64,000 nucleotides of DNA from Candidatus Spechtbacteria bacterium (GTDB taxonomy: Bacteria; Patescibacteriota; Minisyncoccia; Spechtbacterales; JACPHP01), in assembly GCA_016188605.1 (NCBI GenBank), contig JACPHP010000015.1:18833-82832 (forward strand), read 5' to 3'. A program made the position numbers and the translations under genes. The notes below the pieces were generated by a model. The model did not search any database. It was given only the letters and a program-made list of their open reading frames with translations, and was not told the origin of the DNA. This document shows positions 43,398 to 59,940 of this stretch, piece by piece (position 1 is the stretch's first letter; each line of letters opens with the position of its first letter).

Positions 43398-43439
43398 ATT
43401 TATAGTTACGGCCGACATTCACCGGCGCTTACAGCACGA

Positions 43440-44206: not shown

Positions 44207-44332
44207 AATGCTCCGCATTGGCACACTGATATACACAGATACGAACACGGATATACACCGATTTTATCTGTGTTAATCCGTTTTCTTATCCACGTTAATC
44301 CGTGTGTCAGTGCGAAGCACTGACATCCACGT
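44207..44332 (-). repeat. IVS-like insertion, family A copy 2, at the classical 23S helix-45 (~1170) IVS site
   Basis: Identical to 40420-40545. Flanking exon TACCGAAGACGTG | A | GCGTGGTAGGAGAGCATTCTC aligns with E. coli 23S ~1160-1180. Confidence 0.7.
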
Positions 44333-44964
44333 CTTCGGTAATATATTTGAGCCCCGGTACATTTTCGGCGCAAGAACTCTCGACTAGTAAGCTGTTACGC
44401 ACTTTTTAAAGGATGGCTGCTTCTAAGCCAACCTCCTAGCTGTCTGAGAATTCTCACCTCCTTTTCCACTTAATATATATTTAGGGACCTTAGACTGTGA
44501 TCTGGACTGTTTTCCTCACGAGCGCGGAGCTTAGCCCCCGCGTTCTAACTCCCTTCTTATCAATTCAGGAATTTGGAGTTTGATTGATTCGCCTAGGCGA
44601 AAGCCACGACAAATCATCCAGTGCTCTACCTCCTAAATGAAACAGAAGAGGCCAGCCCTAGAGCTGTTTCGGAGAGAACCAGCTATTACCAGGCTCGATT
44701 AGTTTTTCGCTACTCCCCACAGTTCATCACATAGTTTTGCAAGGCTAACGTGTACGGGCCTCCCTCCAGTTTTATCCGGAGTTCACCCTGACCATGGGTA
44801 GCTCGCCTGGCTTCGGGTCTTATGTGTGCCGCCAAGTACGCCCTATTAAGACTTGGTTTCCCTACGCCTTCGTTCCCATCGGAACTTAGACAAGCGACAC
44901 AGATAAACTCGTTGGCTCATTCTTCAATAGGCACAGCGTCACTCCTCGCTACCGCTCGGAGCTC

Positions 44965-45095
44965 CGAAATCAAATCTCAAAAATCAAATCTCAAAATTGT
45001 GGTATCGCCTTGCGGCGATTATATAGTCTCGCAAAGCGAGACACCTTAGTTTTGAGATTTGAGATTTTAATTTTGAGATTAGAAGCTCGGAGCGA
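44965..45095. repeat. 'atctcaaa' word-palindrome element inserted inside the 23S gene
   Basis: ...gctcggagc|tccgaaatcaaatctcaaaaatcaaatctcaaaattg...ttttgagatttgagattttaattttgagattagaa|gctcggagc.... 9-bp direct repeat gctcggagc at both borders. Confidence 0.55.
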
Positions 45096-45162
45096 TAGCG
45101 ATAAAGCTCCGCTTCTCTGTAGGCATATGGTTTCAGGTACTATTTCACTGCCCTCACCGGGC

Positions 45163-45201
<39 letters not shown>

Positions 45202-45404
45202 ATCATCAAAAGTATTTAGCCTTAGCTAATAGTATAGCTAGATTCGCTCGAGGCTTTCGTTCCTCGAGTTACTCAAGAATAGCAACAGGAGATGTGAATT
45301 TTTCGTCTACGGGACCATTACCCTCTTTGGTCGCCCTTTCCAGGGACATTCGACTAAATTGCACATTTTGTGACTCCTTTGGATTGCTCCAATGCTGCCA
45401 TCTT

Positions 45405-45530
45405 ACAACCCCCATCCTTCGCTCTTTACTTCGTAAAGAGCTTCGGAATGGCAAGCCACTATATAAATTTCTGGCATGCTGTTCCGTAGCTCCTTGCGGA
45501 GCAAAGAGCGAAGGACGGGTTTGGGCTTTT
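45405..45530 (-). repeat. Structured insertion, family B copy 2 (23S 5' domain)
   Basis: ccttcgctctttacttcgtaaagagcttcggaatggcaagcc...ctccttgcggagcaaagagcgaaggacg. Confidence 0.55.
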
Positions 45531-45829
45531 CCCTGTTCGCTCGCCGCTACTGAGGGAATCATAGTTATTTTCTTTTCCTCCGCTTACTGAGATGTTTCAC
45601 TTCAGCGGGTGTGGGTTCCAGCTTGCGCTGGAAGAATGCGGTTTTGCCGCACTGAGTTTCCTCATTCGGAAATCCCCGGATCATAGGTTGCTAGGCACCT
45701 CCCCGAAGCTTATCGCAGCCATGCTACGTCCTTCATCCCCTTTTGATGTCAAGGCATCCACCATACGCCCTTAAAAATGTTTGCATGATGCAGTTAAATG
45801 CTCCTCGCTATGCTCGCTCGTCGCAGACG

Positions 45830-48126: not shown

Positions 48127-48200
48127 TGGTGGACCATGGGAGAATCGAACTCCCATCTCCCGGATGCAAACCGGGTGCTCTGCCACTAAGCTAATGGCCC
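48127..48200 (-). tRNA. tRNA-Ala (anticodon TGC), CCA encoded
   Basis: GGGCCATTAGCTTAGTGGCAGAGCACCCGGTTTGCATCCGGGAGATGGGAGTTCGATTCTCCCATGGTCCACCA. G3:U70 Ala identity pair present. Confidence 0.85.
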
Positions 48201-48278: not shown

Positions 48279-48313
48279 TTTCAGCCTGAGGCTGATCCGC
48301 CTCTGGCGGAAAA
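48279..48313. repeat. Twin-hairpin G+C-rich repeat (cagcc-tgag-gctg / ccgcc-tct-ggcgg), copy at the tRNA side of the foreign cassette
   Basis: ttcagcctgaggctgatccgcctctggcggaaaa. Inverted near-identical copy at 56162-56196. Related copies at 8281-8315, 56010-56030 and 56390-56415. Confidence 0.65.
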
Positions 48314-48377: not shown

Positions 48378-48403
48378 TCCTCTGCCACTAAGCTAATGGC
48401 CCA
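48378..48403 (-). pseudogene. Partial duplicate of tRNA-Ala (5' 23 nt)
   Basis: ctctgccactaagctaatggcccaa identical to 48178-48203. Confidence 0.65.
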
Positions 48404-48591: not shown

Positions 48592-48711
48592 GCAATAAAG
48601 AATACAGAATCTAGAATACCGAATACAGGGACGGAATAAACTGCGATACTATCTTTTTTACAACAATAACCAATATGGCACAAGTACCACATATTTGTCA
48701 GGGTTCTGATA

Positions 48712-48739
48712 TTGACTTATAGTTTAATCGTTTTATAAT
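48712..48739 (+). promoter_or_regulatory. Near-consensus sigma70 promoter (TTGACT, 16 nt, TATAAT) for the 48822 gene
   Basis: Direct reading, followed by a leader with AAAGGAGGT SD 5 nt before GTG. Confidence 0.6.
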
Positions 48740-48821
48740 CACGACACTCTCTTGAACTGCACAGAAATGCAAACGAGAAGCTGTATTTTCACAAATTATA
48801 ACAATCGAAAGGAGGTATCTG

Positions 48822-50645
48822 GTGCTAACATCATTAGTTCCAGTCGAGTCATTACTCGACCCCGTTCTTGCTGCCGCAGTATGGCCTGAAAGTATTACAA
48901 GCAATGAAGTTTTCAAACAACAGCTTGAACGGCGCAGGGAGCTGATAAAACGCCTCGAAGACGTCATTTGCTCTCTGCCCCGGCCAGATATGCCTATCGG
49001 GACAGCTATTGATCTGGGGTATATCACCGAGGAACAAGTTGCGGCACTCTATGAATCTCTAAGCGATTTGCTGCAAGACCCGTACTACAAGCGCATTGTC
49101 TTCTATCTTCCATTTGAATTCTTGCCCAACAGAACGTGGGACCATTTCGGGGAAAAACTCCGACAGGTCGCTAGACTATTTAGGCAGGTATACATGGATG
49201 CTTGGTGGCATCTGCTTCTAGTGCAAGACGTACGCGCCAATTTCGTAGATGGCGACGTGCTTGAAGTAGGGCAGAGAGTCGGCGACTTGCCGCGAGTAGT
49301 GAAGGCGGCTCATCTCATACCCAAGCTCGTTGAAAACGGCTTGCTAGAGATTGAGGACGTCATATCTCTCATGGAAAAAGCCAACGATCAGGTGCTGAAA
49401 GATAGCATTGCCGATGCGCTCCCCGTTCTAGCAGATATGGGATTTATTCCAGATACAGAAGCTGACACAGAATCAGCTGAAGCAACACCAAAGCCGATTA
49501 CGCTTACATATGTTCGCAAAAAATTGGATAAAGCGTTCTCTAGAATAGATACTGAAGATTTCGGCAGTATCACGAAGGGTCGAAAAAATTGGCTTGTACA
49601 AAAAAAGAGGCAAGAAGCCATCGATGCCGCTGGAGAAGATATATGCACAGCAATCGTTCGAGGAGAGCTCTCTAATGAAATAACGGCGAGCTTTCTCGCT
49701 TACGGAGATTCTGCTATGCAGCGAGTGCTTGTCGAAGGAATTAGAGCGGCCATTGAGTCCGTCGCGCTAACTAACGTTAGCAGGGCGCACGCACTGTACG
49801 CTCAGTATAAAGAAACTTTGCTAGCACTTTGGGAGAGCGACGATCCTGATATCGGGGAAGCGCTATCCAAAACTTTCCGCCGGCTCCATTACCTCGGTAT
49901 TGTTGATGACCAACGGCTGTCGGAGTTAGGAATAGTCATTCCACGTCTCGCAGGACCTTTCTCTAAAAATCTTAGGTCAATGGGAAAGGACTTGCGCGAT
50001 ATAGAAACGATGGCCGCGTCTATCAAATGCAACAGCGAGCTGTCGCGGCTCATATACCCGGGGGTTCTCATGTACGGCTCGCGCATCAAGGGATACGGCG
50101 CGCAAAATTCTGATATTGACCTTGCCGTATTTGTGAGGCCGGGAACGCCTTTTGCTGGCAGGTCGGAGCTACAAAAACTACTTGGACAAACTTTCGCGCA
50201 TAATGCGATTCGCGGCCAAGTTGTTGAATTCTGGCTGGAAGAAAAGGGCGAGATACTTCGAATTCGTGACTTCAATAGTTCTGATGTATATCTGGGAGAA
50301 AGCTATTGGACACATGTCCTGTTTGGCGCCGTATGGATGGGCGGCGATGATACAATACGTGAGTTGTATGAAAAACTGCTGACTCCATATATGCGCGATG
50401 ACGGTAATATAATTTTTGGCCGCGGCGCAATAAGCATCTACTTGGAGGAAACAGAACGAGACACTCTACAGTACAGGTTGATGCATAAAGGATATGAACG
50501 ATTCTTCCCGCCATGCGGCGGCATACACACACCCCATTCAGATAGAATTAATGATAGTAGCATGTTCTGGGATTCGGGATACAGGCAACTTGCAACAATG
50601 CTGTTTGTAAGCAGAGTTTTTCTGCCGAATATCCCAGTTGTATAA
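48822..50645 (+). CDS. Large protein with C-terminal pol-beta-type nucleotidyltransferase domain (GS...DID minimal NTase core)
   Basis: 607 aa. LMYGSRIKGYGAQNSDIDLAVFV fits hG[GS]x9-13Dh[DE]h. ~400-aa helical N-terminal region of unknown type. Strong SD, GTG start. Confidence 0.5.
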   Translation: MLTSLVPVESLLDPVLAAAVWPESITSNEVFKQQLERRRELIKRLEDVICSLPRPDMPIGTAIDLGYITEEQVAALYESLSDLLQDPYYKRIVFYLPFEFLPNRTWDHFGEKLRQVARLFRQVYMDAWWHLLLVQDVRANFVDGDVLEVGQRVGDLPRVVKAAHLIPKLVENGLLEIEDVISLMEKANDQVLKDSIADALPVLADMGFIPDTEADTESAEATPKPITLTYVRKKLDKAFSRIDTEDFGSITKGRKNWLVQKKRQEAIDAAGEDICTAIVRGELSNEITASFLAYGDSAMQRVLVEGIRAAIESVALTNVSRAHALYAQYKETLLALWESDDPDIGEALSKTFRRLHYLGIVDDQRLSELGIVIPRLAGPFSKNLRSMGKDLRDIETMAASIKCNSELSRLIYPGVLMYGSRIKGYGAQNSDIDLAVFVRPGTPFAGRSELQKLLGQTFAHNAIRGQVVEFWLEEKGEILRIRDFNSSDVYLGESYWTHVLFGAVWMGGDDTIRELYEKLLTPYMRDDGNIIFGRGAISIYLEETERDTLQYRLMHKGYERFFPPCGGIHTPHSDRINDSSMFWDSGYRQLATMLFVSRVFLPNIPVV

Positions 50646-50648
50646 AAT

Positions 50649-50677
50649 AAAGCCGTTGGTTTCACCAACGGCTTTTG
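50649..50677 (+). terminator. Hairpin aaagccgttggt-ttca-ccaacggcttt followed by tg/taatt
   Basis: Immediately after the 48822-50645 stop, between convergent genes. Confidence 0.55.
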
Positions 50678-50746
50678 TAATTGAAGAAGACCACCCCGCA
50701 ACTGCAAGGTGGCCTCAATTTTATAGATTAAAGAACAAAAAACGAA

Positions 50747-51892
50747 TTAGTTACCGCTACGGCGGTGTTCAGTGCCAATACCGGTAAGCCGTTTACTTGC
50801 AGACGCGCTGGCGCTGAGCTGGTCCCAGGGAATCTGGGAGCCAAGCATGTACAGCGCGCCAAAGTACTGCAATTCTTCATTGCCGGCTGGCTGATCCTTG
50901 ACCCGCATGACCGCCAACACGAATCGAGTCAGGTTGGTCTCCAGCCGCGGATACGTGGCAGAAACCGCTACACCGAGCTGTCGAATCATCTGGTCACGGT
51001 TAGCGGCACCGATCAACGCTGGCAGACGGGTATTTTCCAGGGTTTCTTTGATCTTGGATGCGTCATAAGCGAGCGCAGCCGCGATCTGAACTCCCGTTCC
51101 CGCAAAAACCTTGTTTACAGAATCGGCCATTGCATCTGCTGCGTCACGCAGCCCGCCTGTATCCGGCGGCTGCATCATGCCCGAAGGCATAGCGCCACCA
51201 CCGCCGACCATCGCCATCATGGCATTCATCATAAGAGCAGGATTTGCTGCGCCCTGCACCCACGCATCCTGCCAGGATTTAAGCTGTCCATAGAAAGTCG
51301 TAATCGCTGGCCAAAGATGCTCATCAATGCGCTGAAAAAGCTGCTTCTTTCGCGCTTCAGTCACATACGAACCATCCAAACCGTCGATCGCCGCAAAGAT
51401 CTCAGCATAGCTGCGTCGCGTCATTTCCTTTCGAAGCTTAAAAAACTCCGGATCAACCTGCTCTTCGTTCGTATCCGCAAATCTCTCCATCAAGCCAGCG
51501 AGCACATCCGGGATACTGAAGAGGCCTGCCCGGTATGCCAGTGCCGCCCGAACTGCCGAAATAACAGTGGATTGATCAACCTTGAGGATTCCACCAGTTC
51601 GAAGCGCTTCCAGCCAAGAAGCATCGGTGGGCACTGCGGGAAGCACAGCATCAAAAGAAATGGCTCCCATTGTACTTACTGCGGGCGGCTCAGCCACTGG
51701 CTTAGCCGGTGCAAGCGCTTTGAGCAAATTCCTTGCCGGCAATACTTTCATGCCGACTCCGACGAGGTCTTGCTCTGTCAAACCAGCCAGATCTTCCACG
51801 GTCGTAGCACCAAGATCAGAAATAATCTTCTCAATCACTTCAGATGCAACGCCCATAGACTCAAGTTTGGCAGTTACTTCAGTGACTTCCAT
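50747..51892 (-). CDS. Hypothetical protein with N-terminal tandem helix-hairpin-helix-like segment
   Basis: GVASEVIEKIISDLGATTVEDLAGLTEQDLVGVGMKVLPARNLLKAL. SD AAAGGGG 8 nt upstream of ATG. Confidence 0.4.
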   Translation of the reverse strand: MEVTEVTAKLESMGVASEVIEKIISDLGATTVEDLAGLTEQDLVGVGMKVLPARNLLKALAPAKPVAEPPAVSTMGAISFDAVLPAVPTDASWLEALRTGGILKVDQSTVISAVRAALAYRAGLFSIPDVLAGLMERFADTNEEQVDPEFFKLRKEMTRRSYAEIFAAIDGLDGSYVTEARKKQLFQRIDEHLWPAITTFYGQLKSWQDAWVQGAANPALMMNAMMAMVGGGGAMPSGMMQPPDTGGLRDAADAMADSVNKVFAGTGVQIAAALAYDASKIKETLENTRLPALIGAANRDQMIRQLGVAVSATYPRLETNLTRFVLAVMRVKDQPAGNEELQYFGALYMLGSQIPWDQLSASASASKRLTGIGTEHRRSGN

Positions 51893-51914
51893 TTTCTTTA
51901 CCCCTTTCGCGGTT

Positions 51915-53300
51915 CTACCTGCACATCTTATCCCGCTCGGTACTTCCCAGCGAGATCATTCTAACTTGCACTCCCAGCTTTTCTCCAATTATACTGGCAC
52001 AAAACGAGTAAAGCTCGCTTGGTGTGGCGGGCGATGGAACTTTCAGGGTCGTAATTTCCGGCTTGCAGCGCGAAAGCTGTTTGCCGAGCGATTCCTGATA
52101 TTCCAACTGATTGTTATCCGTTCCCACACGGACTTTGATTGCGCCCGTGGGCGTAAAATATGTAGGATCGTCCGCGCCGAGATAACGGTCGCATATACGC
52201 CACTCTCCGTTAGCCACAATTTGATCGAACCATGTGACGGCCAGGCCATTGAATGCATTTGGGCCGCCGCAAACTTCTATAGCGTAACGAAGTAAAACGA
52301 GATCCAGCGCCCCTACGCGCACTTCTCCCTGATAGCGGTTGCTTTCTTTGTGACTGCCTGGAAGCAATCTTTCTGCCATCTCGGGATTGGCAGTAGGCAT
52401 CGGACCCGCACCGTGGCGAATTGCGTATGCTCGGAACACTCCGAAATTCACAATCTCTCCGTCGTAGCCAGCATCTATAAGCATCGCTTGCGTAAAGCAC
52501 GGCAATGTTCGAATGGCGCTTACGTGCGGATAGAAACCGTGAAAGTGATCGGTGATAACTCCGTGCGAGCTTTCAACTACAACCACACCGTCCCGAGCAA
52601 GGACTTCTCGCTCAAGATATTCATGGCCGACAATCTTAGCTCGCCGCGATACTTCTTCAAACCGTTCGGCAATATAGTCGAGGAAGCCGTCATCATAAAG
52701 AAGAGCAACTTCCTTTTGCATCGCCTCACGGTCGCTAGGCAAGAACTCGCCGCCAATAGTCTCGTTGAGATCGCTGCGTATTTGCTCTCGCACGCAAACA
52801 AGCAAATCTTTCAGATCGGGCCGCGACAAATCGCAGGCTCGAATCGTAAGATCCGGATACTGTTGCAAATAGCGATACGCTTCACCAACGCCTGTGCCAA
52901 TCGTGCCGCGAGGATTATTACCACGTGACATTTCTTTCAGGCGCGACGCAATTCCGTGATAAGGCGTGGCGCACAATGCCATTTCATCTACCGTCAGCAG
53001 ACCAAACGGATTGTGTATGCCGTGCTGATATCGAAGTGCGTCAGACTCATTAAGTAAACCTTCTGGAGAAACGATAAACCGAGCGGAGATATGCGTGTTA
53101 ATGCCTTCGAATGTGCCGCATCCCCACTGGCTGAAAGCAAAGCTCTCGCCACGCGAAGTGCGGACACCGTGGCTTCCCTGCGCGCCTCCGACTTTCACGA
53201 CGGTGTGGGCACGCATCATTGTTGCGATTTTGTGCACCACACCGCCCTTGCCGCCGTCACCAGGACCGAGGTCGGTGACGGTGTAGACTTTCTTGGTCAT
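51915..53300 (-). CDS. Divergent adenylosuccinate-synthetase (PurA)-like enzyme
   Basis: P-loop GPGDGGKGGVVHK (PurA GDEGKGK); VKVGGAQGSHGV (PurA GGHNAGHT); NPRGTIGTGVGEAY (PurA TTGRGIGPAY); ESSHGVITDHFHGFYPHVSA (PurA [21 protein letters not shown]); HGAGPMPT (PurA RVGAGPFPT). The aspartate-binding TTGRRRRTGW loop is replaced by SNRYQGEVRVG. ATG at 53300 with GAGGAAGGTGG SD. Confidence 0.6.
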   Translation of the reverse strand: MTKKVYTVTDLGPGDGGKGGVVHKIATMMRAHTVVKVGGAQGSHGVRTSRGESFAFSQWGCGTFEGINTHISARFIVSPEGLLNESDALRYQHGIHNPFGLLTVDEMALCATPYHGIASRLKEMSRGNNPRGTIGTGVGEAYRYLQQYPDLTIRACDLSRPDLKDLLVCVREQIRSDLNETIGGEFLPSDREAMQKEVALLYDDGFLDYIAERFEEVSRRAKIVGHEYLEREVLARDGVVVVESSHGVITDHFHGFYPHVSAIRTLPCFTQAMLIDAGYDGEIVNFGVFRAYAIRHGAGPMPTANPEMAERLLPGSHKESNRYQGEVRVGALDLVLLRYAIEVCGGPNAFNGLAVTWFDQIVANGEWRICDRYLGADDPTYFTPTGAIKVRVGTDNNQLEYQESLGKQLSRCKPEITTLKVPSPATPSELYSFCASIIGEKLGVQVRMISLGSTERDKMCR

Positions 53301-53310
53301 CGTCGCCACC

Positions 53311-53350
53311 TTCCTCGGTACGCCGAAGTCTCGCTTGGCGAGACTTCGGC
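53311..53350. promoter_or_regulatory. Perfect 17-bp-stem palindrome ggtacgccgaagtctcgc-ttgg-cgagacttcggcgtacc inside the cassette operon, abutting the PurA-like SD
   Basis: Direct reading. No T-run, so more likely a processing/stability or attenuator element than a terminator. Confidence 0.4.
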
Positions 53351-53379
53351 GTACCTTTCAATCTTGATTTGGTAACTGG

Positions 53380-54537
53380 CTAGAGCCAGTTGGGTCCGTC
53401 GTCGGAGTCCTCGTCTTCGGAATCTCCAGAAGTAGCCGAATCAATTTCACTAGGATCGACCGGCCAGAGGTCGGTCTTTTCCCTGAAAAGATCGCCGGCC
53501 TTCGGAAGCTTATCGAAGTTCGGAGAAAGCATCTGAGCTCCGAGAGGAATATGCGCAACTGCGTGAATAATCTGACGCGCACTGAATTCTGAAACATTAT
53601 GCTCCGTAAGAAATTCCAAAGCAGACCCCAGGCTCAGCACGCCCTCCATGAGACCGATGATTATTGCCTTTACACAGTGCAGGTTGTTCGTACCTTCAGG
53701 AAGCATAACGAAATGACCAGCTCCATACAAATCGCTCCACTGATCTGCAACATCCCGACGATTTCCAACCTGCAAAAAGAAGGCATGCGCCTTGGTCTGT
53801 AGATCCCTGACTACTTGCGCGGTGTTAGGCAGTTTTCCATTACTGAAGTCATAACCATTTTCTTTGGCATGCTCCAGTACGTCATCTCCGTAAATCTTCT
53901 TCAGCCAACGCGGATCGATAGTTTCAACGATCGGCTCGTCAGAGATCGTGAAGTGATAGTACTTCAAGCCCCATCGGTTAATCGCTGCATTAGTCAAGTA
54001 CACAGCGCCGAAAAGACCGAACTGTGGATCTTCCTTGCCGTTACCTTGACCCCTACGGCCAGGCACTAAATGAGTCATCTGGGAAGCAATTTTCTCGTCC
54101 ATCTCAAATTGAGTACGACATAGCACAGGCACGTCTTCTCCATCTTCAACGTCGTTGAATATGGCAGTTGCAATCTGAACGTCATATCGACCTAAAATAG
54201 GACGACTGCCGCTGGTCAGCATCTCGTAAGAACTAGGCAAGACATCAAATGCTGTATCTACGTTGCCCCCCATAGAACCGGTTGTATCTAGCAAATCTTC
54301 TTCAGCCATAGGAATACCGCAAGTCAGGACCCATAAGTTACCGCGCTTCTCAAAACGCGGCAGAGATCGACGAATGGGCCCGAGATGAGCAGGTCCTTTC
54401 GGATCCACCAGCGGATCTAGACCTTGTCCTTGGTGCATTCGCTCTTCAGCACCGCTGGTAGCTTTCTTGGTTCCATTAGACGTAGCGCTATAACGAACTC
54501 CGGTATAACCAGACCTTGAAAATGTATTCTTCCCCAT
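53380..54537 (-). CDS. Hypothetical protein with vWA-like (MIDAS DxTxS) segment and acidic C-terminal tail
   Basis: LLDTTGSMGG MIDAS-like motif. C-terminal SGDSEDEDSDDGPNWL. SD AAAGGGG upstream. Confidence 0.4.
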   Translation of the reverse strand: MGKNTFSRSGYTGVRYSATSNGTKKATSGAEERMHQGQGLDPLVDPKGPAHLGPIRRSLPRFEKRGNLWVLTCGIPMAEEDLLDTTGSMGGNVDTAFDVLPSSYEMLTSGSRPILGRYDVQIATAIFNDVEDGEDVPVLCRTQFEMDEKIASQMTHLVPGRRGQGNGKEDPQFGLFGAVYLTNAAINRWGLKYYHFTISDEPIVETIDPRWLKKIYGDDVLEHAKENGYDFSNGKLPNTAQVVRDLQTKAHAFFLQVGNRRDVADQWSDLYGAGHFVMLPEGTNNLHCVKAIIIGLMEGVLSLGSALEFLTEHNVSEFSARQIIHAVAHIPLGAQMLSPNFDKLPKAGDLFREKTDLWPVDPSEIDSATSGDSEDEDSDDGPNWL

Positions 54538-54567
54538 ATTATTCGCCCCTTTCTTTGCTATACACGC

Positions 54568-55380
54568 CTACAATGATTCCGTAGTGAAAGGATGATACTT
54601 GCGCTCCCAGAGCAAATCGATTAGTTCATAGAACGCCAAGTGCGCTCTTTCCGCGTTGCTCTCGCTACCGCGGGCTAGACGCCAAAGATAGTCTGTGTAC
54701 CTACGAAAAGCCTCGTCGCCGTCATTTGGGATTGTACCCGTTTTTAGGTCGCCTCCCAGCGCAACAACAACCGATTGCGCCGCTTGAGAAATCTCTTGGC
54801 GCCTAACCTCTACGGGAACTGTGTCGGTATGTATCTGCGCGAATGACCATTCAAAAATCACCACATAGTGTTCCTTCGGCTCAATCACTATATTCTTCCC
54901 GCTCAACAAGTTAACCGAGATTCCTTCGTTGTGCAAGAACGCAAGCAACTTGAGAAGTTTGCCCATAATCCATGCGCTAGTGCGCAAATCAACCCGCAGG
55001 CGGTCTTTTGCCGTGATGTTAATCAGCGGCACCATATCGCCTACATTCTCTACATTCCTAAACGCAAAAACATTAACTTGACGCCCGCCCTGCTCAGTAC
55101 AGATGAAGCTATCCATAAGCTCGGGGAAACCAAGCTGGTAGTTAAGAGGTTCATCGGGACGAGCGTACTCCACTTCGAGCTCTTCAGCACGGCGCTGCAG
55201 TTCTTTAAGAATATAGGCGGCACGCTGAAGCGCGCCGTTGTCCTTAGTTTCGTTAGCAATCTGCAAAATATATTCGCGCTTTACTCCTTCCTGCGTACAT
55301 AGGTAAAGCCGATATTTGCCGGCTTCTGCTACCTTTTTGCCGACTTGATAAACGTGATGACCATTGCGTATAGTGATCAC
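54568..55380 (-). CDS. Protein-kinase-like fold protein with degenerate catalytic motifs (atypical kinase or pseudokinase)
   Basis: LHNEGISVNLLSGKNIVIEP resembles the HRDLKPENI catalytic loop with D->N. DFG replaced by IFEWSF. Likely GTG start at 55380, preceded by SD GAAAGGAGGG. The track ORF extends to 55536 through the leader. Confidence 0.4.
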   Translation of the reverse strand: MITIRNGHHVYQVGKKVAEAGKYRLYLCTQEGVKREYILQIANETKDNGALQRAAYILKELQRRAEELEVEYARPDEPLNYQLGFPELMDSFICTEQGGRQVNVFAFRNVENVGDMVPLINITAKDRLRVDLRTSAWIMGKLLKLLAFLHNEGISVNLLSGKNIVIEPKEHYVVIFEWSFAQIHTDTVPVEVRRQEISQAAQSVVVALGGDLKTGTIPNDGDEAFRRYTDYLWRLARGSESNAERAHLAFYELIDLLWERKYHPFTTESL

Positions 55381-55391
55381 CGAATTTCCCT

Positions 55392-55668
55392 CCTTTCGTA
55401 CTTGTATTGTAAAGGGACACAATAAACTAGTGCTGATAGTATTGTGTATAACCTGTCTTGTCAAGAGCGGCGTAAGTAACCCCTCACACCCCTCGTGAGT
55501 CATTGCGAGCCCCAAGGGGGCGTGGCCCGCCAGCAACGCCTTAAGCGTAGCTTTGGCGGGCTGGCAATCCCGCTCGTATGTGGTAACGAGATTGCTTCAC
55601 GCTACGCTCGCAATGACGTATAATAAGATTTTGATATAGGGGGTGTGGGGGGTTACCATAGCGACGCA
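55392..55668 (-). promoter_or_regulatory. Structured ~280-nt 5' leader of the cassette operon (candidate cis-regulatory RNA)
   Basis: 12-nt perfect inverted repeat GTCATTGCGAGC ... GCTCGCAATGAC enclosing ~100 nt of nested G+C-rich stems (agcgtagc/gctacgct, cccgcc/ggcggg). No match to a riboswitch class I can name. Confidence 0.35.
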
Positions 55669-55678
55669 TTATATGGCA

Positions 55679-55706
55679 TGATTCCTAATGCTCAATATAT
55701 TTTAAA
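55679..55706 (-). promoter_or_regulatory. sigma70-like promoter (TTGAGC, 16 nt, TATAAT) reading into the cassette operon
   Basis: Direct reading on the minus strand. Confidence 0.5.
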
Positions 55707-55796
55707 AGAACTTTATTTAAGATTAGCAAATGGTGATAATAGTGTCAATAGTACACTATTAACAGGTTAAAATTTTATGAATTATTTATGCGGTTT

Positions 55797-55838
55797 TGAA
55801 TTTCACTTATCATACACGGCCGTGTATGATAAGTGAAA
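55797..55838. terminator. Perfect 20-bp-arm palindrome atttcacttatcatacacgg-ccgtgtatgataagtgaaat
   Basis: One of a run of hairpins (also 55920-55945 and 55960-56000) downstream of the 16S 3' end. Confidence 0.5.
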
Positions 55839-56161
55839 TTCAAAATGTTAACAAAATAATCCACCTATGATAAAGCAGAGGCAATAAGTATCACAAACAA
55901 AACAAACTAGTTCTTCGGGGACGGCAGAAATGCCGTCCCTTTTTCATACAATGCAAAACCCTCTGCCTTAGGCAGAGGGTTTTGCATAACTGACAGAATC
56001 ATTGCGTAAAGAAAATTTCTTATCCGCCTCAGGCGGAACATTGAACATCTAAGAGTTGCTCCAAATTGGTAACTCTTTTCTTGCGAAAAGAGATTTTAGT
56101 CTCAGACATTTGAAGGCTTTGAGACTAACGCCTTGCCTACCTTTAGCTAATCATACAGAAG

Positions 56162-56196
56162 CTTTTCCGCCAAAGGCGGATCAGCCTCCGGCTGAA
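56162..56196. repeat. Twin-hairpin G+C-rich repeat, inverted copy at the 16S side of the foreign cassette
   Basis: Reverse complement reads ttcagccggaggctgatccgcctttggcggaaaagc. 33/35 match to 48279-48313. Confidence 0.65.
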
Positions 56197-56344
56197 GCGA
56201 AGGCGGGCAGATATTAAAGCACGAATTCGATGCTTCAATATCGTCGACTCCCGATATTGTATCAAGCAAAAGCTTAATAAAAAATCAAGAAAAAATGATC
56301 CATCCACAGCTTCCGCTACGGATGCCTTGTTCATGTTTACCTGT

Positions 56345-56790
56345 ACTTTTCAATACAGCACGGACTATATCTTCATCCTTTTGTTTTGTAACAATCCGCC
56401 TGAGGCGGACAAAAAGGAGCCAACGTGTAGTCTCTACGGGGTTAATGTGTGCTAAATGATGGGGGCGAGAGAACGCGCTCTCTCGCCTTGATGAAAGAAA
56501 TAAAATGCATTCGTGCTCTTTGTGCGGGCGATTTTTCGGCTTGGGTATGCATCCCCGCGCCGATATAACGTGCGCGGCCACGCTCACTAGCACTTTGCGC
56601 ACAAGTTACACAGAACTACTTCATTCTCCCATCATTCAGCACACATAACTTCCCTCGGTATTGCCTTCATTCCTTTATTATACAACGAATGTCACATAAT
56701 AAAGAGGAGGGTTTCACCGATACAGTTAGATTTTGCAATTGCCTTGCGGCAAAAGGTCGCAACGACCAGAATGGTCTGACGACTTCGTCC
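56345..56790 (-). mobile_element. ORF-less group I intron at the 16S ~S1506 site (between GAAGTCGT and AACAAGG)
   Basis: Exon comparison with E. coli 16S. S-element GATGAAGATATAGTCCGTG at 56384-56365. Confidence 0.55.
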
Positions 56791-56869
56791 TTGTCACTGA
56801 TCTTACCGTGGGCCCACTTACGTGAGACTTCGGGTACTACCAGCTTCACTGACGTGACGGGCGGTATCG

Positions 56870-57893
56870 GGATCAATGAGCATATCATCGTCCCACGCCA
56901 CCGGACGAACGGTTTTACCGTATCCTGGCGGCTTCCATCGAATGCTTCTTGCCAAGAAAACGCATCTGTTCACGCAATCGCACCATTTCGCTGAAACCCT
57001 TATCTGTAAGGTGTTCTTTATTGCGATACATAGTGACAATTCTCTTAAACAGTATGTATGTTTTTGCTTTCTTTGCTTGAAGATGATTTGCATCTAAAAA
57101 TGGAAAAAGATACGCTACCAAATCTTTTGAACTGGTAATTTTATACTTCGCGTGGGGGTACCATCCGTACCTCTCATACGAGCAATCATATATTTTCCCA
57201 CAACCAATTGTCACAAGAATTCGTTCGAGGATTTCACGATCATCTGCGCGGAGTTCGATTTCAAACTCGGCACGTATTTCGACAGAGCGAGGATGTTTAT
57301 AATCTCGTTCTTTTCGTTTTCCAACGCTTACCGCAAACGATCCTTCACCATCAATGAATCCTGCGACATATTGAGGAGGCAATTTTTTTCGATGAATTCG
57401 CTCCTTTCCAATCGGACCCTTCAAAGATAAATTTCTTTGGAAAGGTTTACGACTGGTACTACGAGCTCTGCTGACTTCTTGCATGGAATAAATAAAAATT
57501 ACTTTCTATCCTTCTATAATCCCAAGGTTATTTTACCGTGGAAATTAATACCAAACAAGATCTCCCCCGGTCATCTATAAAACAATTTGAAAACATCTCG
57601 ATCACCCTATACGTAGCAATAAATATACACAAAGTGACTTCCCCATGTACTCGAAGGGTGGTCTTATTACTACGCCTCAACAGTGATTCAAGCTATCTTC
57701 TGCTACCCTCGATTGTAGTTGTAACTATAATCGAGACCAAGTTTAACTTGATTTCGCCCTTCATCCTGGGGGTCACCCCTCGCAGGACTGCGATTTTGCT
57801 TCAAAGCGCTTTGTTCGCTTCGGTTGGACTTCTCACCAACAATAAAGTGGAAAGTCACCAACTCGTTCCATAAACTGCAGGGCACCCGAGTAC
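56870..57893 (-). mobile_element. Intron in 16S at ~S1391-1396 (after CTTGTAC) carrying a LAGLIDADG ORF
   Basis: Exon discontinuity CTTGTAC | ~1 kb | ACCGCCCGTCAC. No canonical S-element seen, so intron subclass is uncertain. Confidence 0.5.
56915..57484 (-). CDS. LAGLIDADG homing endonuclease (single-motif)
   Basis: YVAGFIDGEGSF motif. 189 aa. Confidence 0.8.
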   Translation of the reverse strand: MQEVSRARSTSRKPFQRNLSLKGPIGKERIHRKKLPPQYVAGFIDGEGSFAVSVGKRKERDYKHPRSVEIRAEFEIELRADDREILERILVTIGCGKIYDCSYERYGWYPHAKYKITSSKDLVAYLFPFLDANHLQAKKAKTYILFKRIVTMYRNKEHLTDKGFSEMVRLREQMRFLGKKHSMEAARIR

Positions 57894-58357
57894 AAGACTC
57901 GGGAACGTATTCACCGCGCCATAGCTGATGCGCGATTACTAGCGATTCCGGCTTCATGAGGTCGAGTTGCAGACCTCAATCCGAACTGGGGCTAATTTTG
58001 ATGGGATTTGCTCCGCCTTACGGCTTGGCGTCCCTCTGTAATTAGCCATTGTATCATGCGTGTTGCCCAGGGCATCAAAGGGTCATGCTGATTTGGCGTC
58101 ATCCCCACCTTCCTCCCCGTTATGCGGGGCAGTATCGTGTGACACATATAACACACAATAGGGGTTGCGTTTGTTACCGGACTTAACCGAGCGCCTCACG
58201 GCACAAACTGACGACAACCATGCAACACCTGCCCAATTGTCCTTGTGAGACATTCTCCCTTTCGGGAGAACTTCAACTGGGTGTCAAGCCCTGGTGAGGT
58301 TCCTCGTTTGTCATCGAATTGAACCGCATGATCCACCGCTTGTGCGAGTCCCCGTCT

Positions 58358-58389
<32 letters not shown>

Positions 58390-58796
58390 ACCCAGGCGGA
58401 ATACTTAACGCGTTAGCTTCGCCACGTGTAGGGTCGACACTACACACAGCTAGTATTCATCGTTTACAGCGTGGAATACTGGGGTATCTAATCCCATTCT
58501 CTCCCCACGCTTTCGTCCCTCAGCGTCAGAGTCATGCCAGCTGATTGCCTTCGCCTTTGGTGTTCCCCATGATATCAACGGATTTCACTCCTACACCATG
58601 AGTTCCATCAGCCTCTCATGCTCTCTAGTTTTGACGTTTCCTGCGCAGATTCAAGGTTAAGCCCTGAAATTTAACACTGGACTATCAAAACCGCCTACGG
58701 ACGCTTTACGCCCAATAATTCCGGATAACGCTCGGGGCCCTCGTATTACCGCCGCTGCTGGCACGAGGTTAGCGGCCCCTTATTCCTGAAGTACAA

Positions 58797-58940
58797 TCAA
58801 ACCGCTCCTCGCTACGCTCGGAGCACACCGATAAACGCAGATACGAACACGGATATACGCGGATATAATAATCCGTGTAAATCCATTTTCTTATCCGTGT
58901 GAATCCGTGTACGTTCCGAACGCAGTGAGGAACGGTCTTT
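58797..58940 (-). repeat. IVS-like insertion (family-A-related) in the 16S ~450-480 variable loop
   Basis: ~140 nt absent from E. coli 16S between ...CTGAAGTAC and GAAAAGCAGTTTACAACCCGAAGG. Shares cgaacacggatatac / ccgtgt words and a ccgaacgcagtgaggaac end with the 23S copies. Confidence 0.6.
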
Positions 58941-59284
58941 TTCCTTCAGAAAAGCAGTTTACAACCCGAAGGCCTTCATCCTGCACGCGGCGTCGCTCGG
59001 TCAGGCTTTCGCCCATTGCCGAAGATTCTCGACTGCAGCCTCCCGTAGGAGTAGGGCCCGTGTCTCAGTGCCCTTGTTGGGGGTCGTGCTCTCACACCCC
59101 CTACCCGTCATAGCCTTGGTGGGCCATTACCTCACCAACTAGCTGATAGGCCACAGGCCATTCCAGTACCACCTGAGTTTTACTTGCTCTTGCGAGCAAG
59201 ACCATCAAGTATTAGCTCCGATTTCTCGGAGTTATTCTTGAGTACTGGGTATGTTCCTATGTATTACTAACCCGTTCGCCACTA

Positions 59285-59400
59285 TCCTACGCTCCGCGCT
59301 ACGCGCGGAGCTACGGAATAGCAAGCTCTCCCATATTTTGAGCGCCTGCGATTCCGAAGCTCCTCACGCAGTGAGGAGCGAAGGATCGTTCGACTTGCAT
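59285..59400 (-). repeat. Structured insertion, family-B-related, in the 16S 5' domain (V1 region)
   Basis: cgctccgcgctacgcgcggagctacggaatagcaagctc...gcgattccgaagctcctcacgcagtgaggagcgaaggatcg. Confidence 0.5.
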
Positions 59401-59408
59401 GCCTTATC

Positions 59409-59440
<32 letters not shown>

Positions 59441-59940
59441 GAACTCTTAAAATAAACGAAGTTTATTTTAAGCCCATCCGAAGTTCCGACGAAGTCGGAA
59501 CGCAGGAGGGCCATACAAAACTTCGTTAAATACCAATTTGAAACAACTCTTGAATGTTCAACGTAAAGTTGCAGAGCAACCACGTTGCAAGCAACATAAA
59601 GGGCTCTACGCCCCACGTTGCAAGCAATAATTGTTTTTGTTTCTCGCACATTTGTATATTTGAGGGTGTTGCTCCTCGCCTATACGTTGCCCCCTTCGGG
59701 GGACTTGGCTCTAAAATGTTACGTAGAAATATAAATAAATATACTTCTACGTTTAATAATAATTACAACGTAAAGTTGCGTGGCAACTCCGTAAAGAGGG
59801 CGTGGCCCTCCACGGAGGGTTTTACGCCCCACGTTGCTTTACGCAAGAAAATGTAATTATTATTAAAGCTGATTCTGTTCAGTTGTTAATGTTCATCCGA
59901 AATATTTTCTATTAAATACAATACTTTCGGATACGTAGAC

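What the first reader, a model, noticed from the sequence alone, without database searches (positions are those of the whole stretch)
56290..57900. 16S rRNA with two introns near its 3' end (S1391-1396 with a LAGLIDADG ORF; S1506 ORF-less)
The 16S is continuous up to CTTGTAC, resumes at ACCGCCCGTCACG after ~1 kb containing a LAGLIDADG ORF, breaks again after GAAGTCGT and resumes at AACAAGGCATCCGTAG. The second intron has the group I S element; the first does not, so its class is uncertain. Such 3'-terminal intron clustering makes mature 16S production splice-dependent.
Basis: partly seen in the sequence, partly recalled or inferred. Interest (0 to 1): 0.5.

Follow-up and report, generated by a model that had tools for sequence, protein, structure and literature searches.

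The report
Two introns flanking 16S helix 44
The 16S rRNA gene of this candidate-phyla-radiation bacterium (Ca. Spechtbacteria) is interrupted near its 3' end by a group II intron carrying a LAGLIDADG homing endonuclease and by an ORF-less group I intron; this is real but is a pattern already described for these bacteria.

Summary
It lies on the minus strand. The 16S gene runs 59454->~56287 and is broken twice.

Comparison with 119 intron-less relatives fixes the junctions to the nucleotide:
- Intron 1: 57887-56866, 1022 nt, between E. coli positions 1397 and 1398.
- Exon 2: 56865-56779, 87 nt, essentially helix 44.
- Intron 2: 56778-56332, 447 nt, between positions 1498 and 1499, not 1506.

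Its features:
- Domain V has an invariant CGC triad, with 14 of 14 pairs kept in 24 homologues and 7 pairs compensatory.
- Domain VI has a bulged A.
- A GAGUAC loop is complementary to the last six exon bases.
- The J2/3-DIII match to Rfam is above threshold in 13 of 15 homologues.
- An intact 189-aa single-motif LAGLIDADG gene fills domain IV.

Intron 2 is a group I intron:
- P1 has a U.G pair and there is a P10.
- The R and S elements and a terminal G are present.
- P9 covaries.

Both belong to families already reported in CPR 16S genes (Tsurumaki 2024; rns-1396 of Salman 2012 and Liu 2026). Splicing itself is inferred, not shown. It is a new member of a known kind, and interest is low.

The parts
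56287..59454 (-). Whole 16S rRNA gene, including both introns. The 3' end is approximate.
   Evidence: Rfam RF00177 scores 1301 bits, starting at 59454. The 3' tail is GGATCATTTTTTCT, read directly and aligned to relatives.
57888..59454 (-). Exon 1, E. coli positions 1-1397. It ends with GUACUC (IBS1).
   Evidence: 100 of 119 intron-less CPR alleles read GTAC-TCA-CCGCCC. Alignment to L047, L109, L093 and L059 is colinear.
56866..57887 (-). Intron 1: a group II (IIC-like) intron of 1022 nt, running 5' GGGUG ... GAU 3'.
   Evidence: Rfam D1-D4 matches are.
57565..57882 (-). Domain I. The closing helix pairs CCCUG (57882-57878) with CGGGG (57569-57565). Two window-specific insertions lie at about 57863-57835 and 57751-57707.
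   Evidence: RNAalifold on 22 homologues. The closing helix shows compensatory changes (AU, GC, CG and UA at columns 19/350). RF02003 gives a weak match at 57737-57842.
57647..57652 (-). EBS1 candidate GAGUAC, in the terminal loop of a domain I hairpin. It is complementary to the last six exon-1 bases, GUACUC.
   Evidence: The block CGAGTAC is invariant in all 22 aligned introns. The flanking stem covaries (columns 255-257 with 269-271).
57477..57560 (-). Domain II. The endonuclease start codon at 57484 lies in its 3' strand.
   Evidence: RNAalifold helix, columns 357-363 with 465-471, plus inner hairpins.
57416..57513 (-). Inner domain II hairpin, then the J2/3 linker AGAAGUCAGCAGAG, then domain III.
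   Evidence: Rfam RF01998 scores 33.6 bits here (threshold 35, E 4e-4). The same element scores 35-53 bits, above threshold, in 13 of 15 homologous loci.
56915..57484 (-). LAGLIDADG homing endonuclease gene, 189 aa, with a single motif (GFIDGEGSF). It occupies domain IV and overlaps domains II-III at its start and the domain V loop at its stop codon.
   Evidence: Pfam PF00961, E 7.5e-18. It is 100% identical to an NCBI protein from a Ca. Spechtbacteria MAG, and 647 relatives were found. The nearest solved structures are I-SmaMI and I-OnuI.
56897..56932 (-). Domain V: GCCGCC-A-GGAU-ACGG-UAAAA-CCGU-UC-GUCC-GGUGGC. It has a CGC catalytic triad with a G.U pair, a 2-nt 3' bulge, and an extra bulged A.
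   Evidence: All 14 pairs are paired in 24 distinct sequences, and 7 pairs show compensatory changes. Slid controls give 36-43% paired. The MFE fold agrees.
56868..56895 (-). Domain VI hairpin with a single bulged A at 56873, seven bases before the 3' splice site.
   Evidence: MFE fold of domains V-VI: -33.4 kcal/mol, z = -3.9. The basal helix covaries within the closest subfamily but is only 62% paired across the whole family.
56779..56865 (-). Exon 2, 87 nt, E. coli positions 1398-1498, essentially helix 44.
   Evidence: The same 85-91-nt exon length is seen in relatives.
56332..56778 (-). Intron 2: an ORF-less group I intron of 447 nt, ending in G.
   Evidence: Rfam RF00028 scores 35.1 bits, E 1.7e-6 (threshold 50). 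Same-site homologues score 51.6-75.1 bits.
56756..56763 (-). Internal guide sequence GUUGCGAC. GCGAC pairs with the exon bases GUCGU (P1, with a U.G pair at the splice site). GUU pairs with the 3' exon bases AAC (P10).
   Evidence: Read directly. TTGCGAC is conserved in the same-site introns.
56455..56650 (-). Long structured extension of P6, about 190 nt, closed by a 19-bp helix.
   Evidence: The Rfam alignment shows a 183-nt insertion in P6. There is no other copy in the window and no similarity to the endonuclease genes of same-site introns.
56341..56437 (-). 3' catalytic core of intron 2. It contains the R element GUAGAGACUACACG (56437-56424), P8, the S element GGAUGAAGAUAUAGUCC (56378-56362) and the P9 hairpin (56358-56341).
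   Evidence: In P9, 6 of 7 pairs are compensatory and 98.6% are paired across 10 introns.
56287..56331 (-). Exon 3, E. coli positions 1499 to the 3' end. It covers helix 45 and a tail that lacks the CCUCC anti-Shine-Dalgarno sequence.

Best explanation
The single 16S rRNA gene of this Ca. Spechtbacteria genome carries two self-splicing-type introns at the two ends of helix 44.

Intron 1 (between positions 1397 and 1398) is a group II ribozyme of the IIC type. Its reverse-transcriptase gene has been replaced by a single-motif LAGLIDADG homing endonuclease in domain IV. The inferred mechanism has three steps:
- The ribozyme recognises the 5' exon through the pairing of GAGUAC (EBS1) with GUACUC (IBS1).
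- It uses domain V (CGC triad) for catalysis.
- It releases the intron either by branching at the bulged A of domain VI or by hydrolysis.

The endonuclease, acting as a homodimer, would cut intron-less 16S alleles at CTTGTACTC|ACCGCCCGT. The intron would then spread by DNA-level homing rather than retrohoming.

Intron 2 (between positions 1498 and 1499) is an ORF-less group I intron:
- Its guide sequence GUUGCGAC pairs with both exons (P1 and P10).
- It has a G-binding P7 and a terminal G.
- It would splice by the usual two guanosine-dependent transesterifications.

Both introns must be removed and the exons ligated to form the decoding-centre region of a working 30S subunit.

Shown here: the exact junctions, the ribozyme secondary-structure elements with covariation, homology to above-threshold family members, and an intact endonuclease ORF.

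Inferred, not shown: actual splicing, the branching-versus-hydrolysis pathway, endonuclease activity, and homing.
For: Junctions:
- 100 of 119 intron-less CPR alleles read GTAC-TCA-CCGCCC. This allows only one split of the window sequence.
- The spliced sequence is colinear with L047, L109, L093 and L059 at both sites.

Intron 1:
- 26 homologous introns sit at the same site in other Patescibacteria genomes.
- Domain V: 14 of 14 pairs are 100% paired in 24 distinct sequences, 7 pairs are compensatory, and the CGC triad with its G.U pair is invariant.
- Domains V and VI in the window fold at z = -3.9, with a bulged A seven nt from the 3' end, and the intron ends in AU.
- Domains I and II: 74 of 98 predicted pairs show compensatory changes, and the invariant CGAGUAC loop is complementary to the exon end.
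- RF01998 (J2/3-DIII) scores 33.6 bits in the window and 35-53 bits in 13 of 15 homologues. RF02001 scores 43 bits in L008.
- The LAGLIDADG_1 ORF is intact.

Intron 2:
- RF00028 scores 35.1 bits, E 1.7e-6.
- The same-site introns L031, L028, L020 and L023 score 75.1, 74.5, 62.5 and 51.6 bits.
- The guide sequence, the R and S elements and the terminal G are conserved.
- P9 covaries.

Literature:
- Group II-like insertions with LAGLIDADG_1 at about position 1400, and group I introns at a 3'-terminal site, are reported across CPR 16S genes and are described as removed from transcripts (PMC11270868).
- A IIC intron with a single-motif endonuclease in domain IV at rns-1396 is described in PMC13190283.
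Against: - There are no transcript data for this organism, so splicing and exon ligation are not shown.
- In the window itself both introns score below Rfam's gathering thresholds (33.6 vs 35, and 35.1 vs 50).
- The Rfam domain V/VI model RF00029 matches neither the window (E up to 10) nor 15 homologous loci.
- The 5' end is GGGUG rather than GUGYG.
- Domain V has an extra bulged A and an AAA-type loop.
- Domain VI is only 62% paired across the family.
- Domain I of the window intron has two extra insertions, and P6 of intron 2 carries a 190-nt extension. Either could impair self-splicing or make it depend on a protein.
Confidence: 0.88

Rival explanations
1. The insertions are excised but the exons are not ligated. 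This is how RNase III-processed intervening sequences behave. The small subunit would then contain a fragmented 16S, with helix 44 as a separate 87-nt piece.
For: Fragmenting intervening sequences exist in bacterial rRNA and probably in CPR 23S genes (PMC11270868). Splicing was not observed here. Both introns score below Rfam thresholds in the window.
Against: Both insertions keep the elements needed specifically for exon ligation. Intron 2 has a P10 pairing and a terminal G. Intron 1 has EBS1/IBS1, a 3' AU and domain VI. The catalytic helices are conserved and covary. Neither insertion is a simple long hairpin of the RNase III type.
Confidence: 0.05
2. The ribozymes are decaying remnants, and this 16S copy is non-functional or relies entirely on host factors.
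For: Rfam scores are below threshold. There are extra insertions in domain I and in P6. Intron 2 has no endonuclease gene, while five of the same-site introns examined carry one.
Against: The exons are well conserved (1301 bits). All catalytic motifs that are invariant in the families are intact in the window. The endonuclease ORF is full length. Only one 16S gene is seen in 64 kb, and CPR genomes usually have one copy (PMC11270868). The sequence is identical in six assemblies.
Confidence: 0.05
3. Intron 1 is a group I intron, the usual host of LAGLIDADG genes, that is too divergent to be recognised.
For: LAGLIDADG genes are typical of group I introns. There is no RF00029 match.
Against: There is no RF00028 match at E up to 10 in a dedicated search of the intron. 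The intron ends in U, not G. There is no U.G pair at the 5' splice site. Group II-specific J2/3-DIII, domain V and domain VI elements are present and covary.
Confidence: 0.01

Closest known systems
CPR 16S rRNA insertion site 16IS9 ('position 1400'): group II-like insertions encoding LAGLIDADG_1 (Tsurumaki et al. 2024, PMC11270868)
   Same: The host group is the same (Patescibacteria/CPR). The site is the same within the precision of that paper. The protein family is the same (single-domain LAGLIDADG_1). There is no reverse transcriptase. Classification rests on the same Rfam D1-D4 models.
   Different: That survey located sites only by comparison with E. coli and gave no ribozyme structure. 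Here the junction is fixed at 1397/1398, and domains I, II, V and VI and EBS1 are mapped. I could not confirm that this MAG was in their data set.
Bacterial rns-1396 group IIC-LHE intron family of Thiomargarita/Thiotrichaceae (Salman et al. 2012; Liu et al. 2026, PMC13190283)
   Same: Both are 16S insertions at 1396-1398. Both have an IIC-type backbone, a 34-nt domain V and a single-motif endonuclease in domain IV. The 5' end is non-canonical or extended in both. The endonuclease clusters with fungal mitochondrial ones, and here the nearest solved structures are I-SmaMI and I-OnuI.
   Different: The host phylum differs: Gammaproteobacteria versus CPR. Liu et al. list the family as restricted to Thiotrichaceae. 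Direct sequence homology to those introns was not tested here, because no sequence was available. Self-splicing of the Thiomargarita introns is reported as experimentally characterised (PMC11270868), and nothing has been tested for this one.
CPR 16S insertion site 16IS10: group I introns near the 3' end (Tsurumaki et al. 2024)
   Same: It is a group I intron in the 3'-terminal part of a CPR 16S gene. Same-site relatives often carry LAGLIDADG-type ORFs of 190-220 aa.
   Different: The exact coordinate of 16IS10 could not be read from the held text, so identity of site is presumed. The window copy is ORF-less and has a unique 190-nt P6 extension.
Fungal mitochondrial rns/rnl group II introns with LAGLIDADG ORFs (Toor and Zimmerly 2002; Mullineux et al. 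2010, as cited in PMC13190283)
   Same: They show the same combination of a group II ribozyme with a LAGLIDADG gene in an rRNA gene, mobility by DNA homing, and related endonucleases.
   Different: Those introns have IIB1 backbones, are organellar, mostly carry double-motif endonucleases, and sit at other insertion sites (788, 952).
Oceanobacillus iheyensis group IIC intron (crystal-structure archetype)
   Same: Several blocks are near-identical in a pairwise alignment: the 5' end GUGUGCCCGGCA versus GGGUGCCCUGCA, the motif GGUGAGAGUCC, the J2/3-DIII stretch CAGAAGUCAGCAGA..UAGUACC, and the base of domain V, CCGCC...GGUGG.
   Different: That intron has no ORF in the crystallised form, and its domain V has no bulged A.

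Membership tests
Group II intron | Domain V hairpin of about 34 nt, with a catalytic triad near its base and a 2-nt bulge on the 3' strand | tested here: met
   Located at 56932-56897. All 14 pairs are 100% paired in 24 sequences and 7 are compensatory. The triad CGC with its G.U pair is invariant, and the bulge is UC or UU. Deviations: one extra bulged A on the 5' strand, and a U/GAAAA loop.
Group II intron | Domain VI with a bulged adenosine 7-8 nt from the 3' splice site, and a 3' end of AY | tested here: met
   In the window the MFE fold gives a single bulged A at 56873, seven nt before the end, and the intron ends in AU. Across the family the basal helix is only 62% paired, so this is less clear for the distant members.
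Group II intron | 5' terminal GUGYG | tested here: inconclusive
   The intron starts with GGGUG (GGGUCG in most homologues), directly before the covarying closing helix of domain I. This is a one-base variant or a short 5' linker, as reported for the rns-1396 family (PMC13190283).
Group II intron | EBS1-IBS1 pairing between a domain I loop and the end of the 5' exon | tested here: met
   GAGUAC (57652-57647) lies in a hairpin loop, is invariant in 22 introns, and is complementary to GUACUC, the last six exon bases. No covariation is possible because the exon is invariant.
Group II intron | Multi-branched domain I, then domains II-IV, with a conserved J2/3 | tested here: met
   RNAalifold: 74 of 98 pairs have compensatory changes. 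RF01998 scores 33.6 bits in the window (just below the 35 threshold) and is above threshold in 13 of 15 homologues.
Group II intron | Match to the Rfam domain V/VI model RF00029 | tested here: not met
   There is no match at E up to 10 in the intron, and none at the gathering threshold in 15 homologous loci. This is probably caused by the extra bulged A and the loop variant. The covariation test above supports the helix independently.
Group II intron | Self-splicing or lariat formation | not testable with these tools
   This needs in vitro transcription or RNA-seq.
Group IIC subclass / rns-1396 family | CGC rather than AGC triad; small ribozyme of about 400 nt; no EBS2; no stem IC2 | tested here: inconclusive
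   The CGC triad is met. The ribozyme part is about 330-400 nt 5' of the ORF plus 70 nt, which is consistent. Absence of EBS2 and IC2 was not examined. EBS1 is 6 nt, longer than is typical for IIC.
Group IIC subclass / rns-1396 family | Insertion at 16S position 1396-1398, with a single-motif LAGLIDADG gene in domain IV | tested here: met
   The junction is at 1397/1398. The ORF lies between domains III and V.
Group IIC subclass / rns-1396 family | Sequence homology to the Thiotrichaceae introns | not tested
   No Thiomargarita sequence was available. The Salman 2012 paper is not held.
Group I intron | P1 with a U.G pair at the 5' splice site, formed with an internal guide sequence; P10 with the 3' exon | tested here: met
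   The exon bases GUCGU pair with GCGAC, and U1498 pairs with G. GUU pairs with AAC of exon 3. The guide sequence is conserved in 12 same-site introns.
Group I intron | Terminal guanosine (omega-G) | tested here: met
   The intron ends ...ACAUG at 56332, and all 13 same-site introns end in G.
Group I intron | Conserved P3-P8 core (R and S elements, P7 G-binding helix), scored by RF00028 | tested here: inconclusive
   The window scores 35.1 bits, E 1.7e-6, below the threshold of 50. The R element (GUAGAGACUACACG) and S element (GAUGAAGAUAUAGUCC) are present. Four homologous same-site introns score 51.6-75.1 bits. P9 covaries.
LAGLIDADG homing endonuclease | LAGLIDADG_1 domain with the acidic residue of the motif | tested here: met
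   PF00961 scores 65.7 bits against a cut-off of 23.1. The motif is VAGFIDGEGSF, with the E in place. Each half of I-SmaMI and I-OnuI aligns at E about 1e-28.
LAGLIDADG homing endonuclease | Site-specific cleavage of the intron-less allele | not testable with these tools
   A related CPR enzyme, I-ShaI, was shown to cleave its site (PMC11270868). This one is untested.

The most novel reading that the evidence does not exclude
The two introns and the 87-nt helix-44 mini-exon between them may behave as one composite mobile cassette. The ORF-less group I intron at 1498/1499 would then persist and spread by hitch-hiking. The vehicle would be co-conversion of flanking exon DNA when the LAGLIDADG endonuclease of the group II intron, 87 bp away, drives homing. 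This would explain why the two insertions co-occur more often than expected: 8 of 29 genes with the group II intron, against 5 of 115 without it. A secondary point concerns domain V. The CPR group II family carries a variant with an extra bulged A, which the standard Rfam D5/D6 model does not recognise. This may mark a distinct structural subclass.
Probability: 0.15. Interest if true: 0.4.

Novelty: new member of a known kind. Interest (0 to 1): 0.22.

Why it matters
- Practical consequences. 16S genes like this one are about 3.2 kb long. The conserved sites for the 1392R/1406R and 1492R primers are each split by an intron. These organisms are therefore missed or mis-annotated by amplicon surveys and by rRNA callers. 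Here Rfam squeezed the whole 3' domain of the model into exon 1.
- Biological consequences. Ribosome production in a reduced-genome bacterium with a single rRNA operon depends on two different ribozyme classes acting at the decoding centre.
- Novelty. None of this is new in kind. Insertions of both classes are documented across CPR 16S genes, and the group II plus LAGLIDADG combination at this site is known from giant sulfur bacteria.
- What this analysis adds. It gives nucleotide-exact junctions, a covariation-supported map of the ribozyme elements, and corrected site numbers.

Tried and rejected
- Missing anti-Shine-Dalgarno tail. I looked for a displaced 3' exon, because the 16S ends GGATCATTTTTT. 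The only minus-strand CCTCCTT nearby (48809-48817) is the reverse complement of the ribosome-binding site of a plus-strand gene. Most Parcubacteria relatives also lack the motif, and this loss is published (PMC9297842). A third intron is therefore rejected.
- Endonuclease remnant in intron 2. tblastn of eight same-site intron ORFs against intron 2 gave nothing better than E 0.005 over 10 residues. There are no Pfam matches for ORFs overlapping the region.
- Repeated mobile element in P6. The 190-nt P6 extension has no second copy in the window or in the fetched loci.
- Alignment of the unspliced gene. A MAFFT alignment to E. coli misplaced the introns. It was replaced by landmark positions and by alignment of the spliced sequence.
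- The E. coli copy fetched as a ruler. It is atypical: 1519 nt, with a 23-nt offset. It was used only through the 1392 and 1492 landmarks.
- Literature that could not be read. Salman et al. 2012 is not held. The supplement of Tsurumaki 2024 contains neither the site table nor 'Spechtbacteria'.
- '(A/G)UGCG' as the GUGYG motif. This motif lies 9 nt into the intron. RNAalifold shows that it is the 5' strand of the covarying closing helix of domain I, so this reading is rejected.
Full report
**What is there.** Rfam finds one bacterial small-subunit rRNA in the window, on the minus strand (RF00177, 1301 bits). It also finds a split 23S, a 5S and two tRNAs downstream. On the minus strand the 16S sequence is normal up to ...GAATACGTTCCCGAGTCTTGTAC. 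It is then interrupted for about 1 kb, resumes at ACCGCCCGTCACG, stops after GAAGTCGT, and resumes at AACAAGGCATCCGTAG.

The first insertion contains a 189-aa ORF (56915-57484, minus strand) that matches Pfam LAGLIDADG_1 (65.7 bits against a cut-off of 23.1). This protein is 100% identical to an NCBI entry from a Candidatus Spechtbacteria metagenome-assembled genome. The host is thus a member of the Candidate Phyla Radiation (Patescibacteria). Six independent assemblies from different sequencing runs reproduce 1.3-1.7 kb of this region without a single difference, so the arrangement is not an assembly artefact.

**Exact junctions.** I scanned metagenome contigs for CPR-type 16S genes that are uninterrupted at the first site. 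Of 119 alleles, 100 read GTAC-TCA-CCGCCC and 19 read GTAC-ACA-CCGCCC. The window reads GTAC-TC-GGGTG...CCCGAT-A-CCGCCC. Only one split reproduces the uninterrupted sequence:
- Exon 1 ends at 57888 (GUACUC).
- The intron runs 57887-56866 (1022 nt, GGGUG...GAU).
- Exon 2 starts at 56865.

At the second site the flanking bases differ from the intron ends, so the junction is unambiguous:
- Exon 2 ends at 56779 (GAAGUCGU).
- The intron runs 56778-56332 (447 nt).
- Exon 3 starts at 56331.

The in-silico spliced sequence aligns to four intron-less relatives without a gap at either junction. In E. coli numbering the sites are 1397/1398 and 1498/1499. GTACACACCGCCCGT starts at 1392 and AAGTCGTAACAAGG at 1492, as the names of the standard primers say. 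This was checked on an E. coli rrs copy with a constant 23-nt offset. Exon 2 is 87 nt and corresponds to helix 44, so the two introns sit at the two feet of the decoding-centre helix.

**Intron 1 is a group II intron.** A dedicated Rfam search of the intron gave no group I match at E up to 10. It gave two group II matches: RF01998 at 57416-57513 (33.6 bits, threshold 35, E 4e-4) and RF02003 at 57737-57842 (20 bits).

A protein-guided scan of one genome per species returned 31 loci encoding a relative of the endonuclease. In 26 of them I could locate both flanks, and the gene sits in an insertion at exactly the same 16S site, with the same boundary sequences GTAC|TCGGGT... and ...(A/G)ATA|CCGCCC. 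In 13 of 15 of these loci RF01998 scores above its gathering threshold (35-53 bits), and in one locus RF02001 does too.

The structural evidence is as follows:
- **Domain V.** Alignment of the 3' ends shows a 34-nt hairpin just upstream of a second hairpin and the splice site. All 14 pairs are formed in all 24 distinct sequences, and seven pairs show compensatory changes. Sliding the partners drops pairing to 36-43%. The hairpin has an invariant C-G-C at positions 2-4 of the stem, with the G in a G.U pair. This is the triad variant typical of class IIC rather than the AGC of IIA and IIB (established knowledge). It also has a 2-nt bulge on the 3' strand. It deviates from the textbook domain V by one invariant bulged A on the 5' strand and a (G/U)AAAA loop. 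This probably explains why the Rfam D5/D6 model RF00029 matches neither the window nor the relatives.
- **Domain VI.** In the window the following hairpin folds with a single bulged A at 56873, seven bases before the 3' end, and the intron ends in AU (z = -3.9).
- **Domains I and II.** For the 5' 350-430 nt, RNAalifold on 22 introns gives a multi-branched domain closed by a covarying helix. A second domain follows. Of 98 predicted pairs, 74 show compensatory changes.
- **EBS1.** One hairpin loop in the first domain carries the invariant sequence CGAGUAC. GAGUAC is the exact complement of GUACUC, the last six bases of exon 1. This fits an EBS1-IBS1 pairing and independently supports the junction.
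- **5' end.** The motif (A/G)UGCG, which looks like the canonical 5' GUGYG, is in fact the 5' strand of the closing helix (compensatory CG, UA and AU pairs). The real 5' end is GGGUG (GGGUCG in most relatives), a one-base variant.
- **The endonuclease gene.** It starts in the 3' strand of domain II, runs through J2/3 and domain III, fills domain IV, and has its stop codon in the loop of domain V.

A pairwise alignment with the Oceanobacillus iheyensis IIC intron shows near-identical blocks at the 5' end, in J2/3-DIII and at the base of domain V.

**Intron 2 is a group I intron.**
- Rfam RF00028 matches 56341-56771 with 35.1 bits (E 1.7e-6, threshold 50). The alignment shows a 183-nt insertion in P6 and a long P5.
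- The exon bases GUCGU pair with GCGAC of the intron (P1, with U1498 opposite G). The adjacent GUU pairs with AAC of exon 3 (P10). The intron ends in G.
- Thirteen further 16S genes among the fetched loci are interrupted at the same site. The twelve introns I extracted share the guide sequence and end in G. The R element (GUAGAGACUACACG) and the S element (GAUGAAGAUAUAGUCC) are conserved in most of them.
- Four of the same-site introns score 51.6-75.1 bits, above threshold.
- The P9 hairpin has compensatory changes in six of seven pairs.
- Seven of the same-site introns carry ORFs of 186-221 aa, and three are short and ORF-less.
- The window copy has no such gene. tblastn with eight of those ORFs found nothing. 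The mechanical ORFs overlapping the region match no Pfam family.
- The extra 190 nt fold into a long extension closed by a 19-bp helix and occur nowhere else in the window.

**How it most likely works.**
- The primary transcript must lose both introns and have its exons joined to form the 1400/1500 region of the decoding centre.
- Intron 1 would dock its 5' exon on GAGUAC and use domain V for catalysis. It would leave either as a lariat branched at A56873 or, as IIC introns often do in vitro, by hydrolysis.
- Intron 2 would follow the guanosine-initiated pathway.
- The single-motif endonuclease would act as a homodimer on intron-less alleles and spread intron 1 by DNA homing. Its nearest solved relatives are the two halves of I-SmaMI and I-OnuI, at E about 1e-28. 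No reverse transcriptase is present.
- These steps are inferred. Nothing here shows RNA processing in this organism.
- The literature states that CPR rRNA insertions are removed from transcripts and that one CPR LAGLIDADG enzyme, I-ShaI, cleaves its own insertion site (PMC11270868).

**Comparison with what is known.** Tsurumaki et al. 2024 (PMC11270868) surveyed 380 CPR 16S genes. They found insertions in 48% of them and 53 group II-like insertions. All of those were at 'position 1400' (site 16IS9), 39 encoded LAGLIDADG proteins, and none encoded a reverse transcriptase. They also found group I introns at several sites, including a 3'-terminal one (16IS10).

Liu et al. 2026 (PMC13190283) describe a bacterial 'rns-1396' family in Thiotrichaceae, first reported by Salman et al. 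2012. Its features are a IIC backbone, a 34-nt domain V, a single-motif endonuclease in domain IV, a 5' linker, no EBS2, and endonucleases related to fungal mitochondrial ones.

The window's intron 1 fits both descriptions, and intron 2 fits the first. I could not test direct sequence homology to the Thiomargarita introns, and I could not read the exact coordinate of 16IS10. The finding is a further member of known kinds, not a new kind.

**Other observations.**
- The pairing of the two introns is recurrent. Eight of 29 genes with the 1397 intron also have an insertion at 1498, against 5 of 115 genes without it (odds ratio 8.4, Fisher p = 7e-4). The two samples come from different collections and the test ignores phylogeny, so this is only suggestive.
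- The 16S tail lacks the anti-Shine-Dalgarno CCUCC, as do most Parcubacteria relatives. This loss is published (PMC9297842).
- The 23S gene of the same operon carries five group I-like insertions, three of them with LAGLIDADG genes.

**Verdict.**
- The feature is ordinary for this bacterial group, and interest is low.

Noticed in passing
window 56287-56300 (minus strand): The 16S 3' tail reads GGAUCAUUUUUUCU, with no CCUCC anti-Shine-Dalgarno sequence. Most Parcubacteria relatives also lack it (GGAUUAUUUCAA), while L007, L036, L047, L093 and L059 keep CACCUCCUU. Only 5 of 60 ORFs of at least 120 aa in the window have a Shine-Dalgarno-like motif upstream. The loss is published for a Parcubacteria subgroup (PMC9297842).
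   Followed up: partly
window 48600-56290: The 16S gene is separated from tRNA-Ile, tRNA-Ala and the 23S by about 7.7 kb holding five ORFs. These are a 607-aa protein with a weak nucleotidyltransferase match, an adenylosuccinate-synthetase-like protein of 464 aa, and three ORFs with no Pfam match. At least two of the five (starts at 48822 and near 55380) have strong AAGGAGG-type ribosome-binding sites, although the 16S has no anti-SD. This could be foreign or recently acquired DNA.
   Followed up: partly
window 38600-45770 (minus strand): The 23S rRNA gene is split by up to five group I-like insertions. The Rfam RF00028 matches are at 43036-43285, 42008-42159, 41369-41630, 39875-40311 and 38849-39052. 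Three of them carry LAGLIDADG ORFs: 42032-42901, 40694-41344 and 39058-39537.
   Followed up: partly
window 56897-56932 and loci L007-L037: Domain V of this whole CPR intron family has an invariant extra bulged A on the 5' strand and a (G/U)AAAA loop. Neither the window intron nor any of the 15 homologous loci scanned is detected by the Rfam D5/D6 model RF00029, although the helix is perfectly supported by covariation.
   Followed up: yes
window 56915-56932 and 57416-57484: The endonuclease ORF overlaps ribozyme elements at both ends. The start codon lies in the 3' strand of domain II. The first 20 or so codons are J2/3 and domain III. The last six codons are the 5' strand of domain V, and the stop codon UAA is in the domain V loop.
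   Followed up: yes
loci L007-L037 versus L038-L157: Insertions at 1397 and 1498 co-occur: 8 of 29 against 5 of 115, odds ratio 8.4. The mini-exon between them is always 85-91 nt. The test is not corrected for phylogeny or for the different sampling of the two sets.
   Followed up: partly
window 48379-48401 and 48178-48200 (minus strand): The first 23 bases of tRNA-Ala (GGGCCATTAGCTTAGTGGCAGAG) occur twice, about 200 nt apart. The upstream copy is followed by unrelated hairpin-rich sequence rather than the rest of a tRNA.
   Followed up: no
window about 59294-59375 and 58805-58929 (minus strand): There are two further insertions in exon 1 relative to the bacterial SSU model: 82 nt near model position 80 and 125 nt near position 455. 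They have no intron signature and are probably expansion segments or intervening sequences.
   Followed up: no
window 56391-56407, 56020-56040, 56168-56185, 48290-48312: Small GC-rich hairpins of the form CCGCC-NNN(N)-GGCGG recur. They appear in P8 of the group I intron, in the spacer after the 16S, and between the tRNAs.
   Followed up: no
locus L158 (E. coli strain SMBL, NZ_CP061914.1, 1294952-1296470): This annotated E. coli 16S copy is only 1519 nt long. Its V3 region does not look like E. coli, and downstream positions are shifted by 23 nt.
   Followed up: no
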